A stretch of 60,869 bases of DNA, filler included, from Hausera hauseri (lineage: Eukaryota), in the NCBI GenBank assembly GCA_046269625.1. It is 12 parts of 12 records of this genome, joined end to end, with 100 filler letters (N's around TTAATTAATTAA, not from the genome) between each part and the next. Parts side by side here need not be neighbours in the genome. Positions count along the whole stretch, not along the records: positions 1 to 4,267 come from JBJURY010667886.1; 11 more parts are not named here. One strand, 5' to 3'. Positions 511 to 60,869 of the stretch are shown in pieces. The translations under genes and the position numbers were made by a program. The notes beneath the pieces are model-generated. The model saw only the letters and a list, made by a program, of their open reading frames with translations, searched no databases and was not told the origin of the DNA. The stretch's first letter is position 1, and each line of letters starts with the position of its first letter.

Positions 511-652
511 AAAGTGCCCAGAAGGATACACATGTATGAAGGCTGGAAGGAACCCTAACTTTGGCTACACCAGCTATGACTCTTTTGGATGGGCTTTCCT
601 TACTCTGTTCAGGCTCATGACACAAGACTTCTGGGAAAATCTGTACCAGTTG
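511..652 (+). CDS. Voltage-gated sodium channel alpha subunit, single internal exon (domain I extracellular loop / P-loop), vertebrate (fish)-like
   Basis: Translates [49 protein letters not shown] acceptor at 509-510, GT donor at 653-654, 142-bp exon. QDFWE holds the D of the DEKA filter. The SCN paralogue cannot be assigned by eye. Confidence 0.93.
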
Positions 653-829
653 GTACGCATTTATATTTTATTATGTGCTGTAATAACAGTGCTGTCTATC
701 TTATCATTTAGGTCAGTCTCCAGTCATTCAAACAGACTGTCTGCTTCTGTATTCCCCTTTATCTGACAGCCCGCTTCCTTACTCCTTCTCCTTTCTGTCC
801 ATCTCTTTCCTCTATCTGCATTGAAGAGG

Positions 830-2050
830 AAACTAAAATTGTACCTCGTAATAACTGCATGCTAGCAATGGCAAAGCCAATAATATTAGCACAATACGTG
901 AAGAGATGGAACGAGTACACAGTAAAATAAATGATGTACAGCAGTCTTTAATTCTGAAAACCCAGAGGAAATGATGCGATTTAAAGTTGCGGGAGTAGCA
1001 AATAAGTGTGGCGAAGAAATATCTAAAACCAATTACAAAGGTATTTTCTTATCGAGAAAAGAAATACCCGGAGCGAAAACTAAAATAGATAAGAAAGATA
1101 TTAAGTTGACTTAATACTTCGATAATAAGATCGATTTTCTAATTAATTACGTAAGGAAAGAAATTAGGGGTTTATATCGGGAAATAATAATTAATGAATG
1201 TAAGTTGAACTATGAAATAATGCGTAACAAAATGGCATTGGTAATGACAAATCCAGATATGGTAGCACCAGTACTACCCTTTGGCGACGGAGTTATTGGA
1301 AGAGTGATGGGCGAAGTACTAATAACAATAGGATGTAAGAAGGTGGAAGTATAAATTAGACCCACGGAAGAATGTACCATGGAATTACCCGTCGTTTATC
1401 ATTCGGAAGCGAGATATGTGTTACGCCAGTGACTAGGATATTGCTAGATATTAATGTAAAGCCCACTCTACTATACAATTGTACTTTTAATGTTACCGAT
1501 GTTCAAGATTGACAACGAGAAATGGATAAGAATGCCTAAAAGAGAACCAGTGTCCAAACCGGAGACAGAGTTTGATTAAATTACAAAGGAATCAGAAGCT
1601 TGAACCCTTAACAGGAATATCGCAGAGAGGAATTTATACCCAACAAAATTTAGAAGATTATCGACGGTTGTTGTTGTTCCCACAACAAAGACAGCGAGTA
1701 ATTACCAAACTAACACGGAGAGTAATGTGGGACGGGGAAGGATCACCACAATCGGAAAACCTTATGGATAAGGACTATATAAAGAAAGTAACGAGAAACA
1801 TTATGGAAAAGATGTGGGGAAAGTTCCTATATTTCGGACAAGCAGCCTCCGGTTTTCTAGCGATATATTTTATTATTAACGCTATGCGGACAGTATTTAC
1901 GGCCCTAGGCAAAGCATGTGATACACGCAGCAGTAGGATGCTCATGGAAAATCCTAATAGAAGTAATACCGACCGTAGCAAGCTACTTTTTAACAAACCA
2001 TTATGCACGATGGAAGAAAAAGATATTACAAAAGAGAGACGAAAGAATCC
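830..2050 (+). pseudogene. Chuvirus-like (class III fusion) envelope glycoprotein, C-terminal half, of Gypsy family A
   Basis: Manual translation: LYREIIINECKLNYEIMRNKMALVMTNPD, GRVMGEVLITIGCKKVEV, EECTMELPV, GIYTQQNLEDYRRLLLFPQQ, TM WGKFLYFGQAASGFLAIYFII, and GCSWKIL in a shifted frame. Motif order matches chuviral-type G proteins and the copies at 17520-18659 and 57275-59450. Stops and frameshifts present. Confidence 0.78.
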
Positions 2051-2360
2051 CTGTATAGCATACCTGATAACGGTAATACTAACTGGTCAAGTGAAGTCGA
2101 AGACGAAATACGGACGAATACCTGGCATTAAACAAATAGTGTTGAAGACATGAAAGCCTAAATATAGGCATGAGCTCGTGACGGATTTATCTCATCTAGA
2201 TCCCATAGATGAATATCATGGGGAATTATATAACGAGCAACTTGTAGTAAACCCTTCAGCTCCCCGATATGTGGTACATGCAGGAGTATACCCAATTTAT
2301 CAAGTACAACAGATGCGACAAAATTTTGAGAAAGACGTAAGACCTTATAAGCGTGACTAG

Positions 2361-4267
2361 ACGTGCAAAACTGATGATAAAAAAGGAGAACAAACGCCTA
2401 TATGGCGAGAAATAGAAATAGAGGTAAATGGATACCCTATCATGGCTCTATTAGATACTGGATCTACGACAACAATAATGGGAAGAAGTAAATTACCCAA
2501 AGAATTTAAAAGGAAGTTACAAAGACCGACTACTACATTAATAAATGTAGGAGCGTTCGGTACAGAAGAAATTAAGGTGGTTCTTGACGCAAAAATTAAA
2601 ATCGGCGAACAAACTTTGAAACAAACGATAAGAATAGCCGATAATTTGACTAATGAAATCCTGATTGGGTGTGACGTACTAAATCAATTATAAAACGCAT
2701 ATATAGACGTAAGAACCATTCAATTGAAGAAATTGATGAAGATCGATGCAGAGGAAAGGTCTCATTGACAAAAGATATCATGCCCCCACGATCAGAGATA
2801 GTTGTACCCGGAAAAATAGAAAGCCAAGTATTACCAGAAGTCGTTTACTTTGAGCCATTTGCACAAGTTGTGGAAAAATATGAAGTTTTAATCGCCCTCT
2901 TGTAGATAAAGTAAGGGAAGGAAAGATCCACCTGCGAATTTTTAATACGGCAAGTAAGGAAAGACGATTACGAAAGAATACAAGATTGTGAGAAGTAACG
3001 ACCAATGAGGGGATAATAAATCAAGAAACATGCTCGACAACGTCAGACATAGACAAGATAGAAAAGTTAATGATGGAAAAGTTAAAAAAGGAACCAGTCA
3101 AAGATAGAGTGAAAAATAGAATAGGCAATATTAATTGGCATGAGAAGTTACAGAATTGTGAAATCTTAACTGACGAAGAAAAGAGAATGCTAATCGAATT
3201 ATTACAAAAGAATAACGACCGATTCGCACAGAATGATTACGATTTTGGTACAATGAACGTAATACAACACTATTAAATTAAAAGAAGGACAGGATAACCC
3301 AATCAAGAGACCGTATCGATTAGCGTATGACAAAAAAACAAGAAGCACGAAAGATAAGAAATGAGGGAAAGCAAGATCATCCGACCAAGCTTTTCCCCCT
3401 GGACGGCTCCTGTAGTAATGGTTAAGAAGGATGGAACCATGAGATTTTGCATAAATTATCGAGCGTTAAATGAAATAACCGAAACGGATACATGCCCATT
3501 GCTAAGAATTGACGAAATATTAGACAGGCTTCACGGATCGACCATATTCTCAACCATAGATTTACAGAAAGGCTATTGGCAAGTGGAAGTGAAAGAAGAT
3601 AAACCAAAAACAGCCTTTTTAATCGGAGAAGGGTTTTGGGAATTTAATAGGATGCCATTCGGACTAAAGAATGGACCACCAACATTCCAGAGAGGCGCGG
3701 AACTCTTACTGTTAGACGCCCCACACGCCATGGTATATATTGATGATGTAATAATAGCATCACCAAATTTCCAACATCTAAAAGATTTGCAAGACCTCTT
3801 CGATAGATGTGAAATCATGGATCTGAAGATAAACCCGAAGAAATGTTCATTTGCTCAAACGGAAGTATATTTTCTTGGGCATAGAGTAGACAGATACGGC
3901 GTAAATCCTCAAGACAAACTATTGGAAAAAATAAGAGACTTCCCTAAACCAACCACAGTTAAAGAATTACGCCGATTTTTAGGTTTGGCGAATTACTATT
4001 GTAGATTTATAAAGGATTTCAGCAAAATCGCAAAACCTTTATATGAACTATTGCGTGAGGACCTGGATACAGTAGTTTGGACTACCGAGTGTCAAAAAGA
4101 GTTAGAGTATTTGAAAGAAAGATTGCTGACTGCTCCAATATTAATTTACCCCGATATGAATAAACCATTCATATTAGCTACAGATGCAAGCGACTACGGA
4201 GTTGGAGCAGTGTTATAACAAAAGGGTGAAGACGGTAAAGAGCATTCAGTAGCTTATGCTTCACGGA
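2361..4267 (+). mobile_element. pol: Ty3/Gypsy pol (aspartic protease, RT, start of RNase H), decayed, cut by contig end
   Basis: ALLDTGS protease motif (2442). RT motifs SPWTAPVVMVKK, RFCINYRALN, DLQKGYWQV, MPFGLKN, YIDD. RNase H PFILATDASDYGVGAVL and VAYASR. Confidence 0.95.
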
Positions 4268-4367: not shown

Positions 4368-6892
4368 TCAATAAACAGCATTTGATTTCTTTCACCAAAT
4401 CGAAAAAACAAATATTCAGTACCAATATGCCAATAACGACTTTCATGCCAGTTCATATGTGTATTGCACATGTGTAATACACAGCCTTCAGAATTGCCAC
4501 AATGCCATGAGGAGCTATTAAGGACACAAATTCAACAGAATTATTTATTATCTCTGCCCAGGATGTGAGGCTGTATGTGATGGAGAATACATACATTTTT
4601 ATGAAGATCACAAACATCATTTGACTGACTTCGCATCAAAGTCAAAGAAGATAATCTTTAATGAACATAAGCCAGTTGCATAGCCTGCAGTACAGCCAGA
4701 TGCAGGACTAAAATGCGCATCGGGCGCATCAGGCATAGCGGCTCCATCAAATAGTCAAAGACAGCGGCCAGTTGATGCTGCAACATTAAAGAAAAAATGC
4801 CGCAAATATGCCATTGATCAACTGGTCAAACAACCATCAAGGAGTTCCTGGAGTACACAGAGGAAGAAACAAAGGGGATTCTCCAGGACAACATAGCTGA
4901 GCTCAATGACATTAAGGCTAATATTAAACATGAGGCCACATACGTCAATGTTGATGGCGAAAAGTCCAAAGGGGCCTTCAAGACCAGAAATAGACCAATT
5001 TTTGAAGCCACCAATATAGTAGAATGGCTTCATGAAGAGCCTACAAAGCTGATCCGTGAAGCTGATGAGAGTCAGGATAAGAAGAGCAGATGGACTCTGG
5101 CAACCATCAAGAGATTGCTTGTGTATGTTCACAAGTACTCTCCAATGCGGGGCAGTTCCTATATTCAGCTTCCGGAATGGATCGCTAATAAAAAAGCATG
5201 CATCAATGTCCTTAATGATGACAAGTGTTTCATGTATGCCATTTTATGTAAACTCGTACGGGATCAAAAACACGCAGCAGATTGAATTTGTCTGTATAAT
5301 GATCTGAAGCACAACTATGACTTCCAATGTATTAAGTTCCCGCCATCCATAAATGAAGTTAAAAAATTCGGCCGAATCAACGTGTCCATCAATATCTTTG
5401 GGCTGGATGAGGAGGACAAATTCTATACCCTGCAGATATGTGATGGTGAAATGGAAGATCATAGGGATCTGCTCCTACTAGACGATGGAGAAAAGAAACA
5501 TTATGTTTGAATCAAGAACTTTGAGAGTCTAGTCAGGTCCCAAATTACAAAACATCATGGACAAATAGAAATATGTAAACGATGCTTGTCCCATTTCAAT
5601 GGTGATTCAGCAGTGGAGAAGCTTGCAGAGCACAAGATGTACTGCAAGAACAATTACTGTATCATGCCAGAATTTCCCAAGGAGGACTATATTGAATTCA
5701 AGGAGTTCGAGAAGAAGCTCAAGATCCCAATGGTTATCTATTGTGACTTTGAAGCTATTCTGCGTCCAGTTCAGACATTCATTCCCTGTCCTCAACATAG
5801 CAGCACAACGGCATACCAATATCATGAACTTTCATGGTGTTGTATGTATGCCAAAGGACTAGACAGTGAACCATTTCTATGCAGGGGTCCAAGTGCAGCA
5901 GCACATTTCATGAAAAGACTTGAAAACATGGCTCATAAGCTTGAAAACATGCATCAGCAGCATAAGGATACAATGAGCATGTCGTGGAAACAAGAAGATG
6001 AATGGGGCAAGGTAACAATATGTTACTTGTGCGACAAGTCCTTCACTATGGAGAATCATAAAGTCAGGGATCATTGCCATTTTACAGGTGCATATCGAGG
6101 AGTAGCATTCAACAACTGCAATCTTCGCTGCAAAACATGTACATATGTGCCTGTAGTGTTCCATAATCTCAGTAATTATGATTCCCATTTCATAGTCCAA
6201 GAATTAGGCAACATTGTAGGAAACATTGAGATGATCCCAAACAGTGAGGAGAAATACATCACATTTACGAAGCATGTTGGGAAAATCCGACTTTGCTTCA
6301 TAGACAGCTTTTGTTTCATGTCGTCTTCACTGGACAGTTTAGTGAAGAACCTCTCTGCAGAAGAACTCAAGGAGACGAAGCGATTCTTCCCCATTACCTT
6401 TGACCTAATCAAGAGGAAAGGCGTGTTTCCCTATGACTATATAACTTCATGGGAAACACTGGATGAGACCTCATTTCTGGCCAAGAAGGGCTTTTACAAT
6501 ATCATTTGTGATTGCGATATTAGTGATGCTGACTACCAGCATGCTCAGAATGTCTGGCATGCATTCCAATGCCAAACAGTAGGGGAATACAGTGATATTT
6601 ACCTCAAGACGGACGTGCTGCTGCTGACAGATGTCTTTGAGAGTTTCATGGGTGTTACAATGAAGAGCCATGCTTTGGATCCGGCTCATTACTTTACGGC
6701 TCCAGGGATGAGTTGGGCAGCAATCCTGCGCTATACTGGTATTAGGCTACAGATCATTAAGGATTATGATATGATCCTTATGATTGAAAGAGGCATTAGA
6801 GGGGGAATATGCCATGCCATTCACTGGTATATCGAGGCCAATAACAAGTATATGGCCGAGTACGACTCAACAAAGGAATCCTCATATATATA
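4368..6892 (+). pseudogene. polB: Polinton/Maverick protein-primed family B DNA polymerase with embedded endonuclease VII-like domain, broken just before motif A
   Basis: GSSYIQLPEWIANKKACINV..DKCFMYAI. EndoVII-like CYLC..VRDHCHFTGAYRG..NCNL. Exonuclease/pol motifs VVFHNLSNYDSHFI, FIDSF, KGVFPYDY, YLKTDVLLL, HYFTAPG, ERGIRGG, ANNKYM..YDSTKESSYI. Confidence 0.92.
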
Positions 6893-8200
6893 TGTTGTGT
6901 ACGTAGTAAATATGTAAAGTTTACATTTGAATTTTAAAATAAAAGAATCAAAATAGAAAATTTCAAAAATTCAAAGAAAATTTTAGTATTAAGCGCTAAA
7001 TCGTGTTTACTATTTTGAAAGAATTGCTATCAAAAGCAATTACAGAATAAGTTTATTTTTTTTAACAAAAATAATATGATTATTAAATTATGAAACATTT
7101 ATGATTGATGACCTTAAAAATGTACTAGTTACTAAAAAAAGTAACAGAAAGCCCCCAGGTTTAAAATTAACACCCCCAAGTGTCTGATAGACACCCATAT
7201 TAAATTTAAATTTAGTAACAAAGAGCCTACAAATATTAATAACGACCTACCATGTCTGATAAATGCCCACATAGAATAATAATGCTATATAAACTATAGA
7301 TGTAAAATGAAAAAACGAACATTAACTTCAGTCTAGCTAAAGGCTAACAATAAACCCAAAACGTTTCTAAACCTTAGAGTTTATTTGGGTTAAATTCGAT
7401 TTCATTTGAAGCTATTGTTGATTTGCTGTGAAATTGTGTTCAAGTAATACAATTCTATTAAGAAGAGTTCCTGTTTTCATTTGGAATCCAAAGGAAACGT
7501 AAATTTGTTTTTATTTTGTTGTTTCAATTCCATTTGAGTTTATTTATTATCTTGTTATAATTAACTAAACTTTTACCCACTAACTAATTGCGGTCGCAGC
7601 CGAAAGCACAGTAGGCTACGCGAATCACACAAAATTAAATAAAATCATACATTAGTAAGTAAATTTCTTCTTGTGGTATAAATACCCTTCTCTAAAATCC
7701 AATCTGATTAAAATCAAACAAGGGATTTAAAAAATAGGATTCACTAACACTTAATGAATATTAAAAAATCTCTCATAAGATTGAGAAACATAATAGAAAA
7801 CTATATTTGGATCATACAGGAACGACTGGAGTTCTTTATTTCTGTTAACTCACAAAGAGTAAAAACCCGAAAACGAATTCGAAAGTCATTTAATTTTGAT
7901 AAACACGAAAAATATTATTTAATTCCATTTTCAGTTTTAAACGAAACTTGCACAAGCTATTTTGCCTGTAAATCTCAAAGAGATTATAACCTATTACTTG
8001 AAAACGTTTTCGTTGAACCTAAATTTCCAGATTACTGGATATACGAATTCTTAGCCAAAAGCACCCTTGAACAAATCCGTTCATAAACACAATATAGAGT
8101 TATTAACTGTGATATAGACGCGCCTATTTGGATAGATTACGAATAGGCCACAGGGACAATAAACCGAAATTTTAAACTTGTAAAACATTTGAAATTTTGG
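6893..8200 (+). mobile_element. Probable LTR / 5' region of an LTR retrotransposon inserted into polB, containing a 110-aa unknown ORF (7754-8086)
   Basis: Starts TGTTGTG right after a (TA)n run. TATA-like TATATAAA near 7286 followed by TCAGT initiator near 7328. Abrupt switch to AT-rich sequence. Right end not defined. Confidence 0.4.
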
Positions 8201-14372: not shown

Positions 14373-17300
14373 TTTTATCGAATAGTTCGTTGGTGAAGTT
14401 TCTCCCTCGATCCGTTAGTATCTTATTGGGCGGTCCGTATCTACAAATAATTTTCCTTATCACGGCTTCGGCTAACGTCTCTGCTTTCTGATAATACAGC
14501 TCCACTAACTCCACGAAGTGAGTTAAACGATCGACGCATGTCAGTATATATCTGTTATTTCTGTGCCTCATGGGTAATGGTCCTACGATGTCCATCGACA
14601 TAGCTTGCATAGATCTGTCTGGTAGAGTTATTGACTTTAGCTCTGCTATATAATTCCGCATTTTCCTTTGCTTAGTCGTGAATACTTCGCAAGCGCTTAC
14701 GCAATTTTTCACATCAATATATATACTAGGCCAATAGTATTTGTTCAGCGTCTTATCTAGCATCTTCTTCCAGGACATGTGCCCAACTAAATATAAATCA
14801 TGTTCGGCCATTAAAACCTCGGTTCGTAAGCTTTTGGGTATAGCCACTAATTTCCTTCATTTTCGTTTGTAATACAGTAGTTTTTCATTATTTGGAGACA
14901 CAATATTTATGTCCATATCGTTGTAAATGTTTCTTTAACTGGTGTCCTTTTGGCATTACGTCTGCTTCAGCGTATTCAATGATTTGTTGGGTAACCCGAT
15001 CCTTCTTTTGCTCGCTGGAGATTCTAAGTGCTCCATCTAACGGTAACGTTCATTGTCGGTCTACTAACTCTTCGAGTTGGTTTTTCTTCATCGTCATGAT
15101 CGCACATGTTTTTGTTTTTAGCCTTGACAACGCATCTGCGTCAACATGCTTCGCACCTGGCTTATATTGAAATTCGACATTATACCTCGAGATCTCTTCG
15201 ATTCACCTATTCAACCTACAAGTAAGGTTATTTGCTCGTTCCTTTAAAGTTGTAACGGCCTTGTAATCGGTAACTATTATTACCCTCTGTCCATATACGT
15301 AGACGTTAAAATGCCTCAAGGCTTCTTTTACTGCTAACGTTTCTAATTCCGTCACTGAATAATTTTTCTCCGCTTTCTTCAGGGCGCGTCTTCCGTAAGC
15401 GATTGGGTGTTCTAGTTCTTCGTCCTCGCGTTTCTGTGCCAATTCATATCCGATACCTTCTTTACTTGCGTCTGTTTTAGTAATAAACGGTAAGCTAAAT
15501 TCAGGGTATCTCAGTACTGGTTCGGTAGTTAATATCTTCTTTATTTCGCCGAACGCCTTGTGTTCAATAACGGTCCATCTCCATTTCGTTCCCTTTTTTA
15601 ATAATCGGTATAATGGCACATTGATTTTTGAGTCATCCGGTACGTAAGTAGCATTATATCAACATAGGCCTAACCAATGTCTCAATTCTTTCTGGTCCTG
15701 GGGTTCCATGCAGTCCGAAATCTTGTTCAACAATAATTTGTCCGGCTTTGATACTCCCTATCCAACTATACGGCCAAGGATACGGCGTTCTGGGCCCATT
15801 TGCATTTTTTCGGATTTAGTTTCAACCCAGCCTGTTCTAATCTCATAAGGGTATCCTCAATGTATTTTAGATGATCCTTTTCGTCTTTTGATGCGATCAT
15901 TACGACGTCTAAATACGCAAATGCGTGTTCGAGTCCCATTAGCATTTTATTTATCATCCTGGTAAATATGGCTGGTCCAGTGGTAATTCCAAATGGCATA
16001 ACATTAAATTTGTACACTCCATCATGGGTCTTGAATGCTGTTTTATAACGATCCTCATATTCGATCTCTACTTGCCAATATCCGAATTGTAAGTCCAGAG
16101 TGGTAAACCATTTTGCGCCTGACAGCCTATCTTGAGCCTCTTTCACAGATGGTAGGGGAAAGGAATCCTTTATCATGAGAGTGTTTAATGCACTATAATC
16201 GATACAAAATCGATGTTTTGTGGTACCTTTCTTTTTGACCATAAGAATAGGTGAATACCAAAATCGGAAACTCGGCCTAATTATATCGGCCTTTAACATT
16301 CGTTCCACCTCCTTGATCATCTCAGGTCTTAGAGAATGTGGTGGTGAGTACCATTTTGGTATTTTCTCCTCTTCGAGACCAATCTCGTCATTGGAAACAG
16401 GCTTTTTCTTAAAGTGGTATAGTCAACCTTAATGCTTTTGCTCGGCAAATGTCTTCTTCGTCCTTCGCAATAATTGACATATATCGACATAGTAATTCAT
16501 AAAATTGACAATAGACTTTTGGTGAAAATTTAGTATCGAAGTGTGGTGGAAATTCAGCGTATTTATAAGCTTTTTCTTCAACCGTTATAGCTGATACTTT
16601 GCAAGTATGTCCCATTGTAGTGTTGGCATATACTTTCACTGAAGTTTGAGCATTGTTCACTTTTCTTACCGGTATCCGACCAGATACTACTCTGGTTAAT
16701 ATATTGCTCAATATTATATTCGGATTTAGTGTTTCTTTCGGCTGAAAGTACACTGGTAGATCGTCGTATTGACAGATTTGTGCAAATATTAACAATTCCG
16801 TTTTAGGTGGAATGTTTTCGTCGCCCGGAATCCATACCTCTCCGGTTTCTCTTTCTTTATTAATCTTGGTTCCTTTCATAGATCCTAGTTTGATTAGCGT
16901 CGAGGTGTTTAAGTCAACTGCGACGTTTGGTAGACGTCTTGGTATATCACACCCTAACACTACGTCATCCGTTAAGTGTTTCATTATCGAACATTCGTGT
17001 TGGAATGTTTGTCCCACTATTTTAAGATTACGATTCCATTTAAATTTTAGTCTGGATTCCTGTCCGAAAGCTCCTATACTTCGTGGTCGGTTGCTAATTG
17101 CAATCGTAGTTGTCTTCGTAATGTCTTTGGTATTGATCCGTCCTTAATAAATGATTTCTTTGATCCGGTGCGTATACTTCTCAATCGTCAATACTATTTT
17201 GGGCCAAAGGTCTACCTTCTTTTATCTAAGGTTTTCTAACGACGGAAATCTTGTACCCATTTAAACTAATTTCCGGTATTTTATTTTTGGCTACTTGTCT
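14373..17300 (-). mobile_element. pol: Ty3/Gypsy pol (PR-RT-RH-INT), decayed, same family as 53841-57182
   Basis: RT RFCIDY, LDLQFGYWQV, MPFGIT, YLD. RNase H KTDASKEGIG, PIAYGRR, NYSVTELE. Integrase H..GH..YYWP..C, MDIVGPLP, CVDRLT, TDRGRNFT. Confidence 0.95.
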
Positions 17301-17519
17301 TTATTCCTCACTAGGATATAATCCATTATTTACGCCGTTTTCATCATCTCGTTCCGGTGTATTGATTAGTGGTTCTCGGTTATTTCGATTATATGAAGAT
17401 TGCATTCGTAAATTATCCCAAATTGACGATTTAGTTTCTATATACCGTGACATGCTTGGGGAGTATATCAGCTTGTGGTCCTCTACCGATTGGTGGCATA
17501 ATTCAGAATTTTCCTTACT

Positions 17520-18659
17520 TCAGTACATTTTTCGTAATGCACCGTACTGCTTCGTCCCTTCATAAGGATCTTCATAACTGAAAGGTTTTCGATAGATTTC
17601 CGAGTTGTAAGAGCTAATGGATCTCTTATCGCCGTCCTTGTATTGTGGTGCCAAAGGGGGCGGCATCGGCAAGGGCGGCCTAAGTGCCTTGTGATTGCAT
17701 ATCTTGGAAACCGCGTCTCCTCCCTTAGGCTCATCATCATCTGAATCGTTTCTTTGAAATTTCGTATTTCCTTGTCTTATGAAGAATATAGGTTTTTTCT
17801 TTCGTTTCCGATTATAGTAACCAACGAGTTTCTCAGCGTCGTTTTTCCATTTGTTTTCTTCATAAGCTTTCAAAAATTTCCCAAAAGACGTTTTAATTGC
17901 TGTGAGAATTTTACATAAAAATCCGGTTAGGGTAAATATTTCACAGCCATTTATAACGGATTTAATTACTGCTTTTATGAGCTGTACTAAAAAATAGATA
18001 GCCAAAAAATCCAGATGCAGCTTGTCCGAATATTAAAAATCTTCCCCAGATTTTATATAGTATTTCTGTAGTGACCCTTTGGTAATGATTAACGCCAAGC
18101 AGAGATCCCTTTATAATCATCTCTATTCTTCAAGTAATCTTCTATTCTCACATTTTGTGTTTCCGACGCGAAAGTGGTTATTTCAGCCTCTGCCACTAAG
18201 AACACTTCATAATTAGTGGCGTACATTACCACGTTACATCGGGAAAGCATTTGATTCTTAATAAACTTTAAACCATGATCCTTGGAGATCAGTATCGTGG
18301 GTGTGGATTGTTCGGCCACGTCCTTCCTTGACCTGGCATTATTGTCAGTTGTGTCCACATATCTTTTTCCCGTGGTTTCATTAAAATTTATTTCTTTTAT
18401 TCTAATGAAGTTACAATAGTTCATAAATTGTGGAATCCAAATAACTGTCGAGTTTCGGAAGGTGCAGGCACCATCTTGGATGTGACACTTCCGGTTTTCA
18501 ATATAGGTCTTCGTAACACTATGGAACATCACCTTTTGGTTCCCCATTTCTGTTTTATAGAAATCGACCACTCCTATTCCTCCTTCTTTTCCTTTTCCCG
18601 TATCGTATTCACCCCCGTTATAGTATCCGTTGTGCATATCTAGTTTCACAACTGCTACT
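17520..18659 (-). pseudogene. Chuvirus-like glycoprotein (internally deleted) with TM and cytoplasmic tail, upstream of pol
   Basis: ENRKCHIQDGACTF..VIWIP..CNFI, SRCNVVMYATNY, IWGRFLIFGQAASGF, AIYFLVQLIKAVI; colinear with 57275-59450. Confidence 0.78.
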
Positions 18660-18759
18660 NNNNNNNNNNNNNNNNNNNNNNNNNNNNNNNNNNNNNNNNN
18701 NNNTTAATTAATTAANNNNNNNNNNNNNNNNNNNNNNNNNNNNNNNNNNNNNNNNNNNN

Positions 18760-19852
18760 TTCCTTGGGAATTATTAACAGTTTCTTTAAGGGCTTCTCGA
18801 TCAGAAACTTGACCTGATGCAGTTGGTTGTTGTTGAAGACGATGCTGCTGTTGCTGGATCTGAAAGTGATGATGAGGATGAAAGAAATGATGTATAGGGG
18901 TTGACGGATGCTGTTTTTGTTGTTGGCACTGTTGGTTTTGCTGCTGTTGAAGCTGATGATGCTGATGATGATTACGACGATCTGGTTGCTGTGGTGGAGA
19001 ATTAGATTCTGTTGCAATCGATGATTGAGCATTATTGACAGCTGATTGTTTATCACTTAAAACTTTGCTGACAGCATTATCAATAGCTTTGCTGACCGCA
19101 TGAGCTAATTCCGCTTTCAGAGCTACTGCAATTTTAGTCAGATCCGCTGGCGGAAGTTTTGACTGGTCTTCCGGTGCTGGCGCTGGCTCGCATCGCGCAT
19201 GGGAAGCTTTAGGTATATTTTTCAAAATGGCAGCCATTGGATCCAGACTAGGCCTAACACTAAATGTGTTCTGTGTGAAAAAGTTATCCCTATAAAGCTG
19301 CGGATCAAATCCATTGTGAAATGGTGGAATAAAATCCTTATCCCCAACATTATAATACATGCCATTACGAAACAAAGCATTTGTTCCAAAGAAACCGTTC
19401 ACGTTGTGTATATCGCCTAAAATATCCTCATTATTAACAGCCTCTTCGTCGTTTTTATCATTAAAACTATGGTTGTGCTTGTACTTAATATTGCTGCATT
19501 CATTTCTATGTTCTGTCCTGCTGTTGTCGTGTTGCTGAGGCTGTGTCTGCTTTCTCTTTTGTTTCTTGCTGCCTTCACTGCTTGGCGAGACTCTGTTAAT
19601 CATTTCATACCCGTTGTCAACCTGCAGTGGTGATCTCATGCCGAGAATATGCCCAACCCTGGGTCGTTTGGAAACACCACACAGGGGACTATTTGGTTTA
19701 CTTCCCTCACAGTCAGTCAGATCGTCATCACAACTATCGTCTTCAACAATCCCTCTTCCTTCTTCGTCCTCTACTTCTCTTTATTCCGACTCATCTTCAC
19801 ACGACACAACACCTACATCAAAATCTACCAATTTTTTCCCCAACCTTAATCT
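18760..19852 (-). pseudogene. pros: prospero/Prox-family N-terminal coding exon (one in-frame TAA at 19781-19783), cut by contig end
   Basis: SKRPRVGHILGMRSP resembles the Prox KRARVENI..M motif. KRKQTQPQQHD resembles KRK..PQQH. ALKAELAHAVSKAIDNAVSKV resembles LKQEL..AMSQVVDTVVKV. Q/H-rich tract; candidate acceptor TTTGCAG ending at 19853. Confidence 0.7.
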
Positions 19853-20169: not shown

Positions 20170-20690
20170 CATGGACGATGTTCAATCCGAAATCATTAGA
20201 AATGGAATGGCATATTTTGAATCGAAATGTTTCATCAATCGAGACTTAGCAGCACGAAATATCTTAATAAATGAAAACCACGTGTGTAAAATAGCAGATT
20301 TTCGTTTAACACGAATCGCTCGTGGATCAGAAGATACATATAATACTCGGCAACGTGCAAAATTTCCAATTAAACAGACTGCTCGAGAGGCTGAGTTAAT
20401 GGGAAAATTCACAATAAAATCAGACGTTTGGTCGTACGGCATTGTATTGTACAAGATGATAACTCATGGTCAGACCTCGTTCCCTGCAATGAACAACACT
20501 CAGATCCTACACGAGGTAGAGAAAGGCTATAAAATGGCACGACCACAAACCTGTCCGCAGCAACTCTATCAAATCATGTTAGTGTTGGGAACAATTGCCA
20601 GAAAAGCGACCAACATTCAAAAGCCTCAGTCAGTTTTTCGAAGATTCGACCAGTATTAAAGATGGATATAGACCGACTAATCTAACATAA
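20170..20690 (+). pseudogene. Src/Frk-family tyrosine kinase C-lobe, intronless and inactivated
   Basis: GMAYFES..NRDLAARNIL..KIADFRL..AKFPIKQTARE..FTIKSDVWSYG. A frameshifted tail CWEQLPEKRPTF..DGYRPTNLT* carries the C-terminal Tyr. HRD>NRD, DFG>DFR, WTAPE>QTARE. Confidence 0.88.
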
Positions 20691-32720: not shown

Positions 32721-33043
32721 ACTGTGGTTGAGTCTGGGAGCTGAGTGTTAGCAGTGTCGGCAATTTATTTCTTGGCTAGCGGGCAGGTGACCATTGCGGG
32801 TGGGGCGGAAAAGACATCTATATTCGGAAGGGGCAGCCAATTGCCGTGGGTTCTGCTTCAGATGTAGCTATTTGTCATCATCATCACATGACTGCCTAAT
32901 AGTAGGTGATGGGCGTTGTTTCCCAAGATAACAGTAAGATAGGTTCGAGGGCGTCTATTGTCTGATAAAGTATATTTTTTTATTCTTCTTCTGGTATAGG
33001 TATTAGTGACTATCAGCGTGTAACCAGGCAACTTTTTACACTG

Positions 33044-33365
33044 GCAATTTGTCAAATCGACAACTTTTCATTTTTCAACTTTTAATTTCGACAACTTTTT
33101 ATGTTGGCAATATTTCATGTTGGTAACATTTCATGTTGGCAATTTTTCATGTTGGTAACTTTTCATATTGGAAACTATTCATCTTCTCAATTTTTCATGA
33201 TGATAATTTTTCATATCGGCAGCTTTTCATATCGGCAACTTTTCATGTCGGCAACTTTTCACATCGACACCTTTTCATGTTAGCAACTTTTCATGTCAAC
33301 AGCTTGTCATATTGGCAACTTTAGCATGGTGACAAATTTTCACATTGGCAACTTTTCACGTCGAC
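33044..33365. repeat. 16-bp minisatellite (consensus GCAACTTTTCATGTTG), about 20 diverged copies
   Basis: Direct reading of head-to-tail units with no spacers. Confidence 0.92.
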
Positions 33366-33404
33366 ATGTTTATGCAGGTTTTGTTTTATCTAACAGAAGG
33401 CAAA

Positions 33405-48886: not shown

Positions 48887-49329
48887 CTGTAAATTCAAAA
48901 GTGTACAGACCACAAGNNNNNNNNNNNNNNNNNNNNNNNNNNNNNNNNNNNNNNNNNNNNTTAATTAATTAANNNNNNNNNNNNNNNNNNNNNNNNNNNN
49001 NNNNNNNNNNNNNNNNTGGAGAGTCATTTATTATATGACAAGAGGTGTTGTGACTTGAGTATAATTTGCTGTATGATATGGCTGTGGAGTGTTGGCTACT
49101 GTAATATAAAAGTAGATACAATTGAATATTACCTCCAGCAAAATTGGGTTGTCGTGGATGTCGCGGAGGATACTCTTTGGCCAGAGAGATTCCCATCTAT
49201 CAGTGTGGTATCACCAGTGGGTAGTATAGTGACACAAAAATTATCTCGATTGAGAATCCTACCATACATTTGATAGGTGACAACTGTCACTCATCATTTG
49301 TTTGATGAACTGTTCGTTTGGTGGGAAAA

Positions 49330-53840: not shown

Positions 53841-56800
53841 ATCTTCTGGATTTGCGTAACACGGAGTCATTCCTAAGTCCGTAGGTAATATTGCTTCGCG
53901 TCCATACATCATAAAAATGACGTAAGTCCTGTGGCGGAATGTGGAATTGTATTGATAGTAAATTGTGTTCTTTCTAAAAATTCGTCCCAATCCTTCTGAT
54001 CCTTCGCGACTCCGGTACATAAGACCCATAGAACTGTTGCGTTCATACGTTTGACCATTCCGTTACACTAACGGTGATATGCGGTAGTAGTTAATCGTTC
54101 CATTTCGAAAATCTTAGTAATTTTATCAAATAACTCGCTCGTAAAGTTCCTTCCTCTATCGATTAAGAGTTGATCGGGAGGGTCCGTATCTGCAAATAAC
54201 TTTCCTTATTACCGCATCTGCTAAAGTTTCGGCCTTTTGATCGATTAGTGCTATTAATTCGACGAAATGCGTTAGGCGATCCACGCATGTCAAAATATAT
54301 TTGTTGTTTTTATGAGTTGTAGGTAAGGGCCGTACTATATCCATAGACATAGCTTACATAGGTTTATCTGGTACATTGATCGGTTTTAATTCTGTTTTAT
54401 GGTTTTTCACCTTCTTTTGGTGCACAGACTTCGCAAGCGTTCACCCAGTTTTTCGCGTCGATATAGACGCTTGGCCAGTAATACTTATTCAATTTTCTTT
54501 CTAATGTTTTCTTCCTAGACATATGCCCAGCTAAATGTGAATCGTGTTCGGCCATCAACACTTCTGTTGATAAACCCTTTGGAATATCTACCAGTTTACG
54601 TCCCTTTCGTTCGTAATATAAAATATTGCCTGGGTTCTATGCATAGTATTTTTGCCCGTGTCTTTGTAAGTGTTTCTTTAGCTGGTGTCCTTTCGGTATT
54701 TCATCTCGCTCGGAAAATCTGATTATTTGCTGAGTAACTTTATCCTTGGCTTCTTCTGAAGAAATCTTGATTGTTTTATTCAGTGTTAAGGTCCATTGTC
54801 GTTCCATTAATTCTTCGAGTTGGGCTTTCTTCATAGTCGTAATAGTACTTGTCTTTGTCTTAAGTATTGATAACGCATCTGCGTCAATATTTTTACTTCC
54901 GGGTTTATATTGAAATTCGATATTGTATCGGGAGATTTCTTCGATCCACCTATTTAGTCTACATGTTGGGTTACTGGCTCGTCCATTTAACGTCGTAACA
55001 GCCTTGTGATCGGTAACTATAATAATTTTCTGCCCGTAGACATAGACATTAAAATGCCTTAAAGTTTCTTACACAACTAATGTCTCTAGTTCCGTAACTG
55101 AATAGTTTTTCTCGGCTTTCTTGAACGATTGTCTTCCATATGCGATTGAATGTTCCAATTCTTCGTCTTCTCGTTTCTGAACCAATTCGTAGCCAATCCC
55201 TTCTATACTTGCGTCTGCTTTAATTATAACTGGTAAATTAAAATCAGGATATCTTAGCATTGGTTCACATGTTAAAATTTTCTTCATTTCAGCGAACGTC
55301 TTTTGTTCAATATCGGTCCATTTCCATTTGATTCCCTTTTTTAATAAACGATATAATGGTGCATTAATTTTCGAATTGTCTGGCACATAAGTGGCGTATT
55401 ATCCACATAAGCCTAAGCAATGTATTAGTTCCTTCTGATTTTGATGGCCCATACAATCGAATATGTTGCTCAGTAAGGATTTATCTGGTTTCGATCCTCC
55501 TTCTCCCACTATATGTACGAGATAAGATACAGCATTCTGTGTCCATTTACATTTCTTGGGGTTTAGTTTCAATCCTGCCTGTTCTAACCGCATAAGAGTC
55601 TTTTAGGTGTTCTTCTATTTTCAATGCTATTATTATATCGTCTAAATAGGCGAACGTGTGATCGAGTCCCATTAACATTTTATTCATCATTCTGTTGAAG
55701 ATAGCTGGGTCGGTTGTGATACCGAACGGCATGACGTTAAATTCGTAAACTCCGTTATGTGTCTTAAACACTGTTTTGTAACGATAGTCTTCTTCACTTT
55801 CTACTTGCCAGTATCCGGATTGTAAGTCCAGTGTGGTATACCATTTTGCTCCTAATAATATATCTAATGCTTCTTTTACTGACGGTAATGGGAATGAATC
55901 CTTTATCATAAGAGTGTTCAGAGCTCTATAATCTATACAGAATCGATGTTTAGTAATGCCTTTCTTTTTAACCATAAGTATTGGTGAGTACCAAGATCAG
56001 TAACTTGGTCATATTATGTCGGCCTTTAACATGCGTTCTACATCTTTAGTTATTTCTGGCCTCAATGAATGAGGCGGAGGGTACCACTAAGGCATCTTTT
56101 GCTTTTCCAAATCAGTTTCATCGTTGGAGCCAGGTTTCATTTTTAATGGGATTGTTAACCTTAGAGCCTTTGCTCTACCTATATCTTCTTCATTTTGGGC
56201 GATGATCGACTTGTATTTGCATAGTAGTTCATAAAACTGACAATAGACTTCTGGTGAAAATTTAGTTTCAATATGAGGTGCAAATTTGGCACATGTATGG
56301 TTTTTCTTCGATTGTTATTGCCGATACCTTATAAGAATGGTCCAATGTAGTATTGTCATATAACCTTACTGGGGTTGGCGCGTTATTCACTAATCTGATT
56401 AGTATTAGACCTGTTACCACTCTTGTAAAAATGTTACTAAGTATGATATTTGGATTAACTTCTTCTTGTGGCTCAAAGTATATTGGTTGGTCGTCCTCCT
56501 CCCGGATTTGAGAATAAATTAACATTTAGGTTCTGGGCGGAATATTTTCATCGACGGGAATCCATACTTCTCCTAGTTTCCTTTCTTTCATTGTTTTAAT
56601 CCCTTTTACTGGTCCGAGTTCAAGTAGTTTTCCAGTATGCAAATTTAATGCAATATTTGGCAACTGTTTCAATATATCGCAATCTAATACTACATCATCG
56701 GTTGACTGATCCATTATGGCAGATTCATGTTAAAGGATTTGACCCATTAGATGAACTAGTGGATTCCACTTAAATTTGGGCTTAGATTCTTGCCCGAAGG

Positions 56801-57182
56801 CTTCTATGCTACTCGGATCTGATGACGATGCTGGCTGTAATTGTTTTTGTAGAGTCGGTGGTATTGATTCTAACTTAATAAATGATTTTTTCGATACTGT
56901 GTCGATTAAAGCATAAACTTTCCAATCATGAATGGCAACTTTTGTAAAGGGTGTTCCTTCCATAACTGTTCCATAACAACTTGATACGTCCTTCAGTCGT
57001 TTACTTGACAAAATATTATGTCCGTTTATTGTTATCTCTGGTGGTGAAATGATATTTTTGGTCAAATGTTTCAATTGCTCGTTTGGATATAAATTGTTGC
57101 CTACTATGCTATTCTCATTGTTTTTAATTACTGATTCTTTTGTTATCGGATTTTGTAGCAATTTCACTCCTGGTATTTCCAA
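53841..57182 (-). mobile_element. pol: Ty3/Gypsy pol (PR-RT-RH-INT), decayed
   Basis: PR VYALIDTVS. RT RFCIDYRALN, LDLQSGYWQV, YLDDII. RNase H KADASIEGIG, NYSVTELE. INT HDSHLAGH..YYWP..CEVC, MDIVRPLP, TTAYH..NGMV. Confidence 0.95.
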
Positions 57183-57274
57183 ACTGTCGATCTTGACTCT
57201 ATATTACAAGCGATTCTTGGTGAATACAATATTCTATGGTCATCTTCCGTTCGTTTTTGATTAGTGATCTGCAT

Positions 57275-59450
57275 TTACTTTAATACTCCGTATTGTTTTG
57301 TTCCTTCATAAGAGTCCTCATAGCTAAAGGCTTTTCTATGGTTTTCCGATTTGTATGATATTATCCATGGCCTGTCGCAGTCTTCATATATTGGACCTGT
57401 CGGTGGGATAATGGGCAATGGCGACTTGATTACTGAATACAGTTTGTGTCTATTTTGTCTGAGGATCACTTCTCCTCCATTAGGCTCATCATCATCAAAG
57501 TTATTTCTTCGTGTTGTTGATTTCCTCTTTGCATTTTGATAGAAATGTGGATCTTGTTTGTCGCTTATAACTATGGTAGCCAACATGGCGTTCAACGTCA
57601 TTTTTCCATCGATTTTCTTCATAGGCTTTGAGCATTTTTCCGAAAGGTGTAATAATTGCTGTTAAAATCTTTCAACAAAATCCTGTTAGCGTGAATATTT
57701 CATCCGTTTATAATCACTTGGATTACTGCCTTCACTAATTGTATCAAGAAATAAATTGCCAAAAATCCGGATGCGGCTTGTCCAAAAATTAAAAATCTTC
57801 CCCAAATTTGTAGAGTATTTCCGTGGTTACTCGTTGATAATGGTTTACATCGAGCAAGGATTCGCACTTAGCCTGATAACGGGTATCGTCCACTACTGAA
57901 GCCATGGCTTGGTTTAATTTGTGTGTTCACTGCTGCGGAAAAGCGAGAAATTGCATACAGGCTTCGATCTCTTTTGGTCTGTGTATGCCCTTTTGAGATG
58001 TATCTTGGAACTTGTCGTCAGTAATCACTTTTGCTAAATTGGTTACGGTTAGCTTTTTAGGAACGGCAGTGACACCTCCATTCGGCAAACTAACCCAATC
58101 CGTTTCGCTACGTCTAAACATTGTTTTGCCTAAACTTGCTTTGCAATCCTTTAGGATTATAGGCTGTGTTACATTATCCAGCAACATCTTAGTGAGGGGC
58201 ATGGCTAATCGTGGAGTATTTCGATAGATTACAGGAAGTTCTTGTATACATCGTTTTTCGTCAACATTAATTGGTACATCTCTTTTTTCACACCCATATG
58301 TCAATAGAACTTCACCAGAGACTCGATCAAAGATTCCTTCTCTCATGGGAATAATTGGTGAGGCTAACTCAGGGTTTGCGTAAATAAGAGCTAATTTTGT
58401 CTTCATAATTTTCATGTCCAATTTGTAATCGTTTGTTATCATTTAGTGGTATAGTTCGGCTATCCCGACTTGTGATTTGTAATAGAAATAATCATCTCGG
58501 TTTTTCAGATAGTCTTCAATCCGAATGTCCTGCGTTTCTAGATTGTAGGCTTTCACATTTATCTCTGTTTCTGCAACGAAAAACGCTTCATAATTAGTGG
58601 TGAACATCACTACCTAACAACGTGAAATCATTTCTTTTTTAATAAATTTCAGTCCATGTTGGTCAGAGATTAGTATCGTAGGTGTATGATGTTCTAATAC
58701 GTCTTCACGTATCCTTGAACTGACGTCATATTTATTTATGTATCGTTTCCCCGTAGTTTCATTAAATTTCAGTTACTTAATTTTAATAAAATTACAGCCT
58801 CTTCCAGAGGGTGGTCCCCATATTACAACGGAACTTTTGAATGCACAGGTTCCATCCTGTATATGACATTTTCGATTCTCGGTATATAGCTTAGTGACGC
58901 TATAGAACATCACTTTCTGTACTCGCATTTCCGATTCGTAAAAGTCTACGACTACTACGTTTGCTTCTAATCCTTTTCCGGTGTCGTATTTTGCTTCACT
59001 ACATTGCCCATTACGCATGTCTAGCCTTCCGACTACTACCTTACATGCAGTAATTATCTTTTCGGGATGCATCTCTAATTCCAGATTATCCCATTTTAAT
59101 CTTCCGGTTTCTCGGGCCTGCTTACAGTGTTGTCTTTCCAAGTTCATTGGAATTGGAGGGGTCGTTGGTTTGATTATGGAAGAATATTCGTGCATTAGTC
59201 CACAGTGGAAAATGCTACGAGATCATCTCAGCATATACTTCGTGCCTTCCAAAGATATCAATTCTTGTTGTTAATATAGGAAATAACTCTTCTCCTTCGT
59301 TTCCAATTTGTGCGGTCGGGCATCTTCACATGCCACTAAGTCCATTAGTGAATATTTTTGTCCAAGCTTAAATTTATCTCATTCGTATACAGTAACCGCA
59401 CCTATCTGTTCTATTAGCACCATTATAGTGAGTAAGCTCATTAACCAATT
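57275..59450 (-). pseudogene. Full-length chuvirus-like envelope glycoprotein (signal peptide, Cys-rich ectodomain, TM, Pro-rich tail) upstream of pol
   Basis: Signal WLMSLLTIMVLIEQIGA|VTVYE*D..YSLMDLVAC, then FFHCGLMHEYSSI, HCKQARETG, NGQCSEAKYDTG..NVVV, KCHIQDGTC..VIWG..CNF, LALIYANPE, RVSGEVLLTYGC, CIQELPV, KGI..LAFPQQ, WGRFLIFGQAASGFLAIYFLI. Confidence 0.8.
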
Positions 59451-60869
59451 GGATTCATTCTTTCGGTTGTTATTATCCGTTGTCGAAAAGTTCCATAAGA
59501 TATCTTCGAGTCTATTGTTGCTACTGGTCCTTTTGTCTTCTTCCTTATCAAATAATCTTGGCCAATTTACTTCACAAGGAAGCTTCCTAGCCGCTTTCCG
59601 CACCAGGCTTGTAGCTCAATTGAATTCACTATCTCGATTTGGATTTGTTTTAATTGCTAAGTACAGTAATACTTTCCTTAGCTCTTCCGTCGTATTCTCC
59701 ATCATGATTTTCTCAACTATTGCGTCGTCAGTTAGGTTACTTTTTGATAGCTTAAAACGTGAACTTCTTATTGTCCTAGCTGCGTTAAATATCGCCTTCT
59801 CGTTATCATCTAATGTGTCTCCTCGAAGGCTCAAATAATTCACGATTCGTATTAAATTTTTCATTAATTCATTTAATTCTTCATTATCCGTACTGAAGTT
59901 GGGAATTGACATTTGTCTCAATTCTCTAATCAGCTCCCCGTTGTAGTCGATGTCTTCTCGGATTTTCCTGAGCCTACCTACCGGCCGTCTTTGTTTCGGG
60001 GCAGTTGACAATGTCATGCTCAATGGTACTAAATTTTTTTCGCATTGTTCCTTGTCTTTGTCTGTTTGCAAATACTCGAAATACATTGCGGCGTCTCGAA
60101 CTCCCATGATTTGTCCTACACATTGTTCTGTATTTGCTTTACGTGTGGCTTCTTCTTTAGTCTGTTCGTTGGTTATCGTTACCACTATTCTGTTTGTTTC
60201 GTCGGGTATAATTCCGGCGTCTATTAACTGTGCTAAATCATCTAGCATTCTATCTCTGAAACAGAATCTATAATTTGACTCGTTCGTTCCACCATTATTC
60301 CTTAACCATTCTTTCACGTCCCTTGCGTAGGAATATGTGGTCAACTCACATTTTTTTTCGTCCATCCATTCAGATGATATTTTTATTTTCATTGTTGTTT
60401 CAGGTTTAGCCCTTAAGATTTTAGCATACTTCTTTATCAAAAGTAAATTGTGTTCTCACTAGCTAATTTAATCAAGGTCGGAATAAGCTGTCTTAGTTTA
60501 TTTTTAGTAATGTTTACGTTAATTAGCTCAATTAAATCCTTTTCGGTTAGCGCTGAATCCAGGAGCATCTCCACATTAAACTTCTTGTTCTGCGGGTACG
60601 CTTCTATTTCATTTAGGTGTACTGGAGTTATAGGATTTTCGGCCGTTATCGCCTGTAAATATGCATCCCATTCCGATTCGTTCCCAATATCTGGAAGTCT
60701 ATAGTCTACTAAGGTTGCGTTTGTTCTTTGCACATTTTCTCGAATTTCTTTCAATCTTGGTTGTATTTCTTTCATCTGCGTAGTTCGGAAACCTATTCCG
60801 TTTCCACAGGCATACTGAATCATTTTCAGTAATTCGCCTAATTCATTAGAATTGATAAATCCCTTTTGG
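59451..60869 (-). pseudogene. Unknown N-terminal region (gag position) of the G-carrying Gypsy element, more than 450 codons
   Basis: ORFs 60437-60823 and 59616-60440 overlap by 4 nt (likely one frameshift). 59616-60440 continues in frame past a single TGA into 59379-59603. No CCHC seen. Confidence 0.6.

What the first reader, a model, noticed from the sequence alone, without database searches (positions are those of the whole stretch)
830..4267. A second, clearly diverged family keeps the same G-then-pol order
Seen: this copy's G and pol differ strongly from the 14-18 kb and 54-61 kb family (YIDD vs YLDD, TDASDYGVG vs DASxEGIG). It still shares the TM-proximal string FGQAASGFLAIYF, FPQQ and the same G-to-protease adjacency. 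Inference: the arrangement is inherited and old rather than a one-off insertion of a viral gene or an assembly chimera.
Basis: partly seen in the sequence, partly recalled or inferred. Interest (0 to 1): 0.75.

Follow-up and report, generated by a model that had tools for sequence, protein, structure and literature searches.

The report
Decayed retroelement, envelope gene before polymerase
This is a broken copy of a retrovirus-like jumping gene whose membrane-fusion envelope gene lies in front of, and in one reading frame with, its protease and reverse transcriptase; that layout is already described in flatworms, and the vertebrate gene beside it is likely an assembly join rather than its host site.

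Summary
Window 872-4267 (+) is a decayed Ty3/gypsy copy: a chuvirus/herpes-gB-type fusion glycoprotein (G), a membrane anchor, a linker in one frame with the protease, then RT and RNase H. It is 35% (G) and 43-45% (RT-RNase H) identical to the copies at 14-18 kb and 54-61 kb, which are themselves two lineages. G shows purifying selection between lineages. The copy is colinear with intact single-ORF G-protease-RT proteins from other public assemblies. G and pol trees put all window copies in one clade with them (pol 94/94, G 100/99), with one old conflict outside the window. So the order is inherited, not a chimera or a one-off capture. It is already published: planarian Burro (env in frame between gag and pol) and GAG-ENV-POL elements of nematodes, bryozoans and flatworms. 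The contig's vertebrate sodium-channel exon is likely joined to the element through a shared 23-nt word, so a vertebrate host is not shown. One new detail: a Tyr-Pro motif just ahead of the protease (10 of 11 relatives, 3 of 3 copies), a likely processing or budding signal.

The parts
801..823 (.). 23-nt word shared by the vertebrate-type flank and the element side; likely false assembly join
   Evidence: an X1 contig matches 801-920 with 0 differences but has other letters before 801; X2 and X3 contigs match 687-823 with 0 differences and run on into other sequence
872..1910 (+). C-terminal 60% of a class III (chuvirus / herpes gB type) fusion glycoprotein with its membrane anchor, broken by stops and frameshifts; N-terminal part, gag and LTR absent from the contig
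   Evidence: profile positions 219-563 of 584
1833..1900 (+). membrane-anchor region starting FGQAASGFLAIYF, the string shared exactly with copy 3
   Evidence: anchor role inferred from the hydrophobic peak at this place in intact relatives, the copy's own segment stayed under the threshold
1983..2408 (+). linker in the same frame as the G C-terminus and the protease; carries PSAP and the conserved Tyr-Pro at 2289
2409..2730 (+). aspartic protease, DTG at 2454
2730..3301 (+). protease-RT linker, 37% identical to P0007; Burro has a dUTPase-like domain here (not tested)
   Evidence: PMC6431247 section 7
3302..4267 (+). reverse transcriptase (YIDD at 3736) and start of RNase H, cut by the contig end
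14373..18659 (-). copy 2: internally deleted G, protease, RT, RNase H, integrase (Ty3/gypsy order)
53841..60869 (-). copy 3: unassigned coding region (about 59500-60869), predicted signal peptide, near-complete G (59399-57691), protease, RT, RNase H, integrase

Best explanation
Window 872-4267 is a dead copy of a Ty3/gypsy retroelement whose fusion-glycoprotein gene lies upstream of, and in frame with, protease and RT, and it likely belongs with the planarian Burro-type elements that make gag, envelope and pol as one polyprotein. Shown: the domain order, the shared frame, colinearity with intact single-ORF relatives, the class III fold of the sister copy's G, purifying selection on G, and one clade in G and pol trees. 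Inferred mechanism: the polyprotein would start in the cytosol. An internal signal peptide would send G into the ER lumen, the anchor would return the chain to the cytosol, and protease-RT-RNase H-integrase would hang on the tail of G until the protease cuts them free, likely at the conserved Tyr-Pro 29-60 residues before the active site. That ties the enzymes to the membrane that wraps the particle and would allow cell-to-cell spread. The host is likely an invertebrate whose DNA was sequenced together with a vertebrate's.
For: Domains. Shared frame: 2 stops in 236 codons, 17.8 expected, P 3e-6. Colinearity with P0007 over 888-4266. Single-ORF relatives: 4 of 15 proteins scanned hold G+protease+RT+RNase H+integrase and 5 more of the 15 hold G+protease; also P0007, P0123 and P0272, 4844 aa with ankyrin repeats; P0126 has a weak Bcl-2 match before G (E 1e-3, under the cutoff). 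Burro is described with in-frame env, BCL2 and ankyrin. Fold of copy 3 G: pLDDT 86.7, best PDB matches herpesvirus gB (E 2e-12), best viral matches chu-like G (E 1e-30). Trees: G, copies 1+3 sister (94/87) inside a 100/99 clade of mostly pol-fused Gs; pol, 9 G-carrying rows one clade at 94/94 of 32 rows and 97/98 of 15 rows; copy 1 with two non-G neighbours rejected, AU p 0.002; G and pol distances correlate, r 0.81. Selection on G: pN 0.42 / pS 0.80 (copy 1 vs 3), 0.26 / 0.84 (2 vs 3). Run X1 covers every bin from 859 to 4267 at summed depth 1,775-43,574 against 0-3 in the flank; contigs span 2132-2420 and 2313-2519. Tyr-Pro: 10 of 11 non-redundant relatives (shuffle mean 2.4), 5 of 33 other gypsy proteins, 3 of 3 window copies.
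Against: RT alone is weak: the 50-row tree left copy 1 unresolved, and two placements among non-G elements were not rejected. The 32-row pol tree omits the long-insert group of P0009, and its bootstrap had not settled. G and pol disagree on P0007 (AU p 0.03 and 0.02). No named Burro or nematode sequence was in any tree; the link to planarian elements rests on architecture and on a by-eye likeness to supplement rows. No gag or LTR was found in the window, and the region upstream of G in copy 3 matched no Pfam family and no relative's N-terminus. No listed contig bridges 1970-2130 (the table was cut). The Tyr-Pro motif was noticed after the fact and its carriers are related. Particle formation and spread are untested.
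Confidence: 0.85

Rival explanations
1. The element lives in a vertebrate (fish-like) genome and sits in the intron after a sodium-channel exon, which would extend these elements to vertebrates.
For: The contig carries a 142-nt AG/GT-bounded exon that scores 85 bits against human Nav1.2/1.1/1.6 and 66 against the cockroach channel. Run X1 holds both the flank (depth 3.0) and this copy (depth 4.3). Runs X2 and X3 hold the flank and element-like pieces.
Against: The only X1 contig listed across 823/824 leaves the window at 801; X2 and X3 contigs leave it at 823; they overlap by 23 nt. In X2 and X3 the main flank contigs are 0.7-2.5 kb at depth 15-22, while the 12 element-like pieces listed are 156-270 nt at depth 2-6 with 11-35 differences, and only 69 and 50 records were laid against 10,450 in X1. 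A copy with about 18-19 breaks should be shared by organisms that show no listed intron difference from it. A chance 23-mer match is expected about 1,300 times under assumed sizes of 10 Mb and 1 Gb. Caveat: the tool drops human-like records and cuts its tables.
Confidence: 0.15
2. The two families are unrelated gypsy lineages that captured a similar G independently, or exchanged it recently.
For: RT-only AU tests do not reject placing copy 1 among non-G elements. Copies 2+3 have a long pol branch. One supported G/pol conflict exists in the wider clade. The eLife survey says GAG-ENV-POL elements are not monophyletic overall.
Against: Longer pol alignments give one G-carrying clade. Copies 1 and 3 are sisters in G (95/94) and, weakly, in pol (78/84 and 87/74). 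Synonymous sites are saturated in G as in RT, which speaks against a recent swap. The Tyr-Pro linker motif is shared.
Confidence: 0.08
3. The G-pol adjacency is an assembly artefact or a viral fragment inserted next to an ordinary gypsy element.
For: The same contig looks chimeric at its left end. No listed piece spans the whole stretch.
Against: Three separate contigs show the same order. The linker is open in one frame. Intact one-ORF relatives exist in other assemblies. Depth in X1 does not drop across 2003-2574.
Confidence: 0.02
4. Same ancestry, other mechanism: G is kept not for free infectious particles but to anchor pol on a membrane, or to fuse neighbouring cells; the Tyr-Pro motif is a budding (ALIX-type) or endocytosis signal rather than a cleavage site.
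For: 8 of 13 tails read YP-x(1-3)-L/I, and PSAP occurs in P0123 and in copy 1; such motifs are recalled as late-domain and sorting signals. The eLife discussion calls the entry mechanism of gB-type elements unknown.
Against: The motif mostly sits 29-60 residues before the protease active site, where an aromatic-Pro autoprocessing site is expected (recalled from HIV). Several members lack the final L/I. The whole ectodomain with its cysteines is conserved.
Confidence: 0.3

Closest known systems
Burro / GYPSM1 giant gypsy elements of planarians (Arkhipova and Yushenova 2019, PMC6431247; section 7 and passages read)
   Same: Mononegavirus-like env in frame between gag and pol; thousands of copies; decayed copies with stops and frameshifts. 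Relatives of the window G include a 4844-aa ankyrin-bearing ORF and a G with a weak Bcl-2 match before it.
   Different: The window copies have a compact G-to-RT region (one protease; G anchor to protease 207-294 codons). Gag, LTRs and the accessory domains were not seen. The region upstream of G in copy 3 is unassigned.
GAG-ENV-POL HSV/gB-type 'errantiviruses' of Nematoda, Bryozoa and Platyhelminthes (Chary and Hayashi 2026, PMC13524379; abstract, sections 5 part 1, 6, 9 part 1, 13, passages, and searched rows of supplement files 2, 3, 5, 7)
   Same: gB-type env before pol in a Ty3/gypsy element; env diverging with pol. Domain I-II rows of the six Schmidtea elements resemble copy 3 G and its relatives by eye.
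   Different: That survey lists intact copies and had no vertebrate genomes. The words fused, single ORF and polyprotein do not occur in its main text. The host here is not known.
Nematode endogenous retroviruses, NERV (Sacco et al. 2022; paper not held, seen only as cited in PMC13524379; continuous gag-env-pro-pol ORF recalled)
   Same: env and pol order flipped in a metavirus.
   Different: No sequence comparison was possible; the nematode group is reported as a distinct clade.
Chuvirus glycoproteins and Anakin-type BEL/Pao elements (search listing and mention in PMC12440569 part 1)
   Same: Same fusion-protein family (PF24664; fold matches).
   Different: Stand-alone Gs of about 650 aa fall outside the window's clade. 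The pol here has the gypsy order and groups with gypsy proteins.

Membership tests
Ty3/gypsy (Metaviridae) | pol order protease-RT-RNase H-integrase | tested here: met
   Copy 1 to RNase H (contig ends); integrase after RNase H in copies 2 and 3
Ty3/gypsy (Metaviridae) | RT groups with gypsy RTs | tested here: met
   Best hits are gypsy-type pols at 45-53%; trees. No BEL, copia or retrovirus references were in the trees.
Ty3/gypsy (Metaviridae) | LTRs, primer-binding site, gag | tested here: inconclusive
   None found in the window; contigs are 4-7 kb and end inside the elements. Gag is present in relatives.
GAG-ENV-POL gB-type errantiviruses | env of HSV gB / chuvirus type | tested here: met
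   PF24664 in copies 1 and 3; fold of copy 3 G; copy 1 by homology
GAG-ENV-POL gB-type errantiviruses | env upstream of pol | tested here: met
   3 of 3 copies
Burro-type elements | env in frame with pol in one polyprotein | tested here: met
   Copy 1 linker open in the shared frame; intact relatives are single ORFs
Burro-type elements | giant size with accessory domains (BCL2, BIR, MATH, ankyrin) | tested here: not met
   None seen in the window copies, whose 5' parts are missing or unassigned; seen only in relatives. Filed as Burro-like, not as Burro.
Burro-type elements | phylogenetic grouping with named Burro sequences | not testable with these tools
   No named sequence could be loaded; by-eye likeness only
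Chuvirus-derived single-gene EVE | stand-alone viral gene without retroelement frame | tested here: not met
   G is in frame with protease and groups with pol-fused Gs

The most novel reading that the evidence does not exclude
These are enveloped, single-polyprotein Burro-like proviruses that entered a vertebrate genome, split there into at least three lineages under selection on the fusion protein, and reached thousands of copies: a gypsy lineage with a class III envelope in a vertebrate, processed at a conserved Tyr-Pro site that frees pol from the envelope anchor.
Probability: 0.15. Interest if true: 0.75.

Novelty: new member of a known kind. Interest (0 to 1): 0.35.

Why it matters
It adds three diverged lineages to a small published group in which envelope and polymerase are one protein, and gives direct evidence that the envelope was under purifying selection and travelled with pol. 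The conserved Tyr-Pro motif makes the open question of how such a polyprotein is processed testable. The case is also a warning: a vertebrate exon on the same contig suggested a new host group, but the read data point to a false join.

Tried and rejected
No whole genome is held, so no copy census or LTR search was possible. Scans for loci of relatives found none: metagenome contigs with P0007 and P0140, genome contigs with P0127; the alignment query had no usable conserved stretch. The word-index search with copy 3 G found 0 of 4648 candidates; the full HMMER search found 248. No RNA holder was listed. dN/dS between copy 1 and the others is undefined because synonymous sites are saturated; pN and pS are given instead. 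A G profile did not assign 640-975 to G. The ORF upstream of G in copy 3 gave no Pfam family, no match among the session's proteins beyond two weak hits in another frame, no atlas answer and a fold of pLDDT 35. Atlas searches on two other ORFs did not tell the host group. No tRNA or Rfam match in the window. A sequence profile of G found no solved relative; only weak protease hits came back. Sacco et al. 2022 is not held. Paper searches for a vertebrate example, for gag-env-pol and for late domains in such elements showed no such report in their listings; of those listings only PMC11089739 and PMC10175614 were opened, as passages, besides the papers cited under Closest known systems. Earlier findings: none by place or sequence.

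Full report
Layout. The window is 12 contigs of about 4-7 kb joined by N-spacers, so neighbouring contigs are not neighbours in a genome. Three contigs carry a glycoprotein-then-pol element: copy 1 (the finding, + strand), copy 2 (14373-18659, -) and copy 3 (53841-60869, -).

Observation. Copy 1 holds two pieces matching the Monjiviricetes fusion glycoprotein family PF24664, a retroviral protease, RT and the start of RNase H, in that order. Amino-acid identity to copy 3 is 35% over 279 G codons and 43% over 298 RT-RNase H codons. Copy 2 reads YLDV, lacks FPQQ through a deletion of about 200 G residues, and is only 72% identical in DNA to copy 3, with pS 0.74-0.91. The window therefore holds three lineages. 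Copy 1 is dead: 12 frameshifts and 7 stops against one guide, 10 and 8 against another. It begins in the middle of G.

One polyprotein. The G C-terminus and the protease lie in one frame. Over 1983-2690 that frame has 2 stops in 236 codons; the other two frames have 28 and 22, and 17.8 are expected. Among the RT hits, P0007 (53% identity) is a single ORF of G, anchor, protease, RT and RNase H, and copy 1 aligns along it from 888 to 4266. A full HMMER search with copy 3 G returned 248 proteins, the best 150 listed. Of 15 chosen for a domain scan, 4 hold G, protease, RT, RNase H and integrase in one ORF, and 5 more hold G and protease; two of these also carry a gag or zinc-knuckle match before G. 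P0123 reads as gag, signal peptide, G and protease, and P0272 is a 4844-aa ORF with ankyrin repeats. A 203-aa fragment, P0140, is 77% identical to copy 1 and so of its family. Nearly all are unnamed; one is filed under a bacterial bin.

The envelope. Copy 3 G, read with X at its stops and folded with 39 relatives, gave mean pLDDT 86.7. Its best solved matches are herpesvirus gB (E 2e-12, TM about 0.4) and its best viral models chu-like glycoproteins (E 1e-30, TM 0.63-0.77). G differs more at synonymous than at replacement sites: pS 0.80 / pN 0.42 for copies 1 and 3, and 0.84 / 0.26 for copies 2 and 3. So G was kept under selection while the lineages split; dS is saturated and gives no ratio or date.

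Trees. In a 48-row G tree, copies 1 and 3 are sisters (94/87) inside a 100/99 clade of 11 rows, mostly pol-fused, apart from stand-alone Gs (32 unlabelled rows were taken as the best blastp hits). RT alone is weak: unresolved with 50 of 124 rows, 86/98 for the nine G-carrying rows with 30 rows, and two alternative placements of copy 1 not rejected. Protease-to-RNase H (580 columns, 32 rows; four near-duplicates dropped, long-insert group absent) gives the nine rows 94/94 and the window trio 87/74. With 15 rows the clade is 97/98, grouping copy 1 with two non-G neighbours is rejected (p 0.002), and G and pol distances among 8 taxa correlate (r 0.81, p 0.0004). One conflict is supported both ways: P0007 lies outside the window's group in G but inside the group that excludes the window in pol (AU p 0.03 and 0.02). 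That is an old env exchange or a long-branch effect; it does not part the window families.

Reads. Three runs hold the stretch (shares 0.22, 0.05, 0.05; all contigs; none on record as RNA). In X1 summed depth is 0-3 over 1-858 and 1,775-43,574 in every bin from 859 to 4267, with contigs spanning 2132-2420 and 2313-2519. The family is high-copy there, and cover does not drop at the G-pol junction.

Host. 511-652 is a 142-nt exon of a vertebrate-type sodium channel, which first suggested a vertebrate host; the published survey covered no vertebrates. The second read laying undercuts this. The X1 contig that matches 801-920 exactly has other letters before 801. The X2 and X3 contigs that match 687-823 exactly run on into other sequence. 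The two sides share 23 nt, a match expected by chance about 1,300 times under assumed sizes. In X2 and X3 the main flank contigs are at depth 15-22, while the 12 listed element-like pieces are short, at depth 2-6 and diverged, as trace DNA of a second organism would be. I infer a mixed sample and an invertebrate host, and leave 0.15 for a vertebrate. The tool filters human-like records and cuts its tables, so this is not proof.

Mechanism. Shown: order, frame, fold, selection, clade. Inferred from the hydrophobic segments of intact relatives: cytosolic start, internal signal peptide, lumenal ectodomain, anchor, then cytosolic pol. Such a chain must release its enzymes. A Tyr-Pro lies 20-100 residues before the first protease motif in 10 of 11 non-redundant relatives (shuffle mean 2.4), in 5 of 33 other gypsy proteins, and in all three window copies. 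I favour a protease cleavage site (aromatic-Pro sites recalled from HIV); a budding or sorting signal is the rival, since many read YPxL and copy 1 and P0123 also carry PSAP. The motif was found after the fact and is untested.

Known systems. Planarian Burro elements carry a mononegavirus-like env in frame between gag and pol, with BCL2 and ankyrin motifs, in thousands of copies (PMC6431247). GAG-ENV-POL elements with gB-type env are reported from nematodes, bryozoans and flatworms (PMC13524379). The Schmidtea rows in its supplement resemble copy 3 G by eye. An earlier report of this scan describes the same layout in another genome.

Verdict. Real, inherited, and a new member of a known kind; interest 0.35.

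Noticed in passing
window 511-652 (+): 142-nt exon of a vertebrate-type voltage-gated sodium channel (domain I pore loop), AG/GT bounded. X2 and X3 contigs show no listed difference over 408-531 but 14 listed differences over 532-604, and X1 shares the first five, so this flank may itself be a mosaic of paralogs.
   Followed up: partly
window 801-823: Likely false join through a shared 23-nt word; other contigs of this assembly may carry such joins.
   Followed up: yes
window 59500-60869 (-): About 450 codons of unassigned coding sequence upstream of G in copy 3, its last part in frame with the signal peptide; no Pfam family, no match to relatives' N-termini, no usable fold.
   Followed up: partly
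window 4800-6917 (+): Decayed ORFs with an endonuclease VII match; by eye a Polinton-like DNA polymerase. Similar remains appear near 10-13 kb, 34-37 kb and 38.4-38.8 kb (read by eye).
   Followed up: no
window 20204-20656 (+): Intronless, decayed tyrosine-kinase domain (atlas score 0.98), likely a retrocopy; by eye a piggyBac-like transposase remnant lies on the other strand near 22.2-22.9 kb.
   Followed up: partly
window 18704-19780 (-) and 47625-48914 (-): Two long open frames (358 and about 430 aa) without a Pfam family; the first is Gln/His-rich, the second looks like a long host exon.
   Followed up: partly
window 52129-53391 (+): By eye, remains of a non-LTR retrotransposon with an RNase H domain, followed by a four-base microsatellite at the contig end.
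   Followed up: no
P0127: A eukaryotic-type G-pol polyprotein filed under a Flavobacteriaceae metagenome bin; likely a mis-binned contig.
   Followed up: no
P0124, P0128, P0129, P0133, P0136, P0272: Several relatives carry two or three protease-like domains in tandem after G.
   Followed up: no
window 33016-33371: Tandem array of a 16-nt unit, about 18 listed copies.
   Followed up: no
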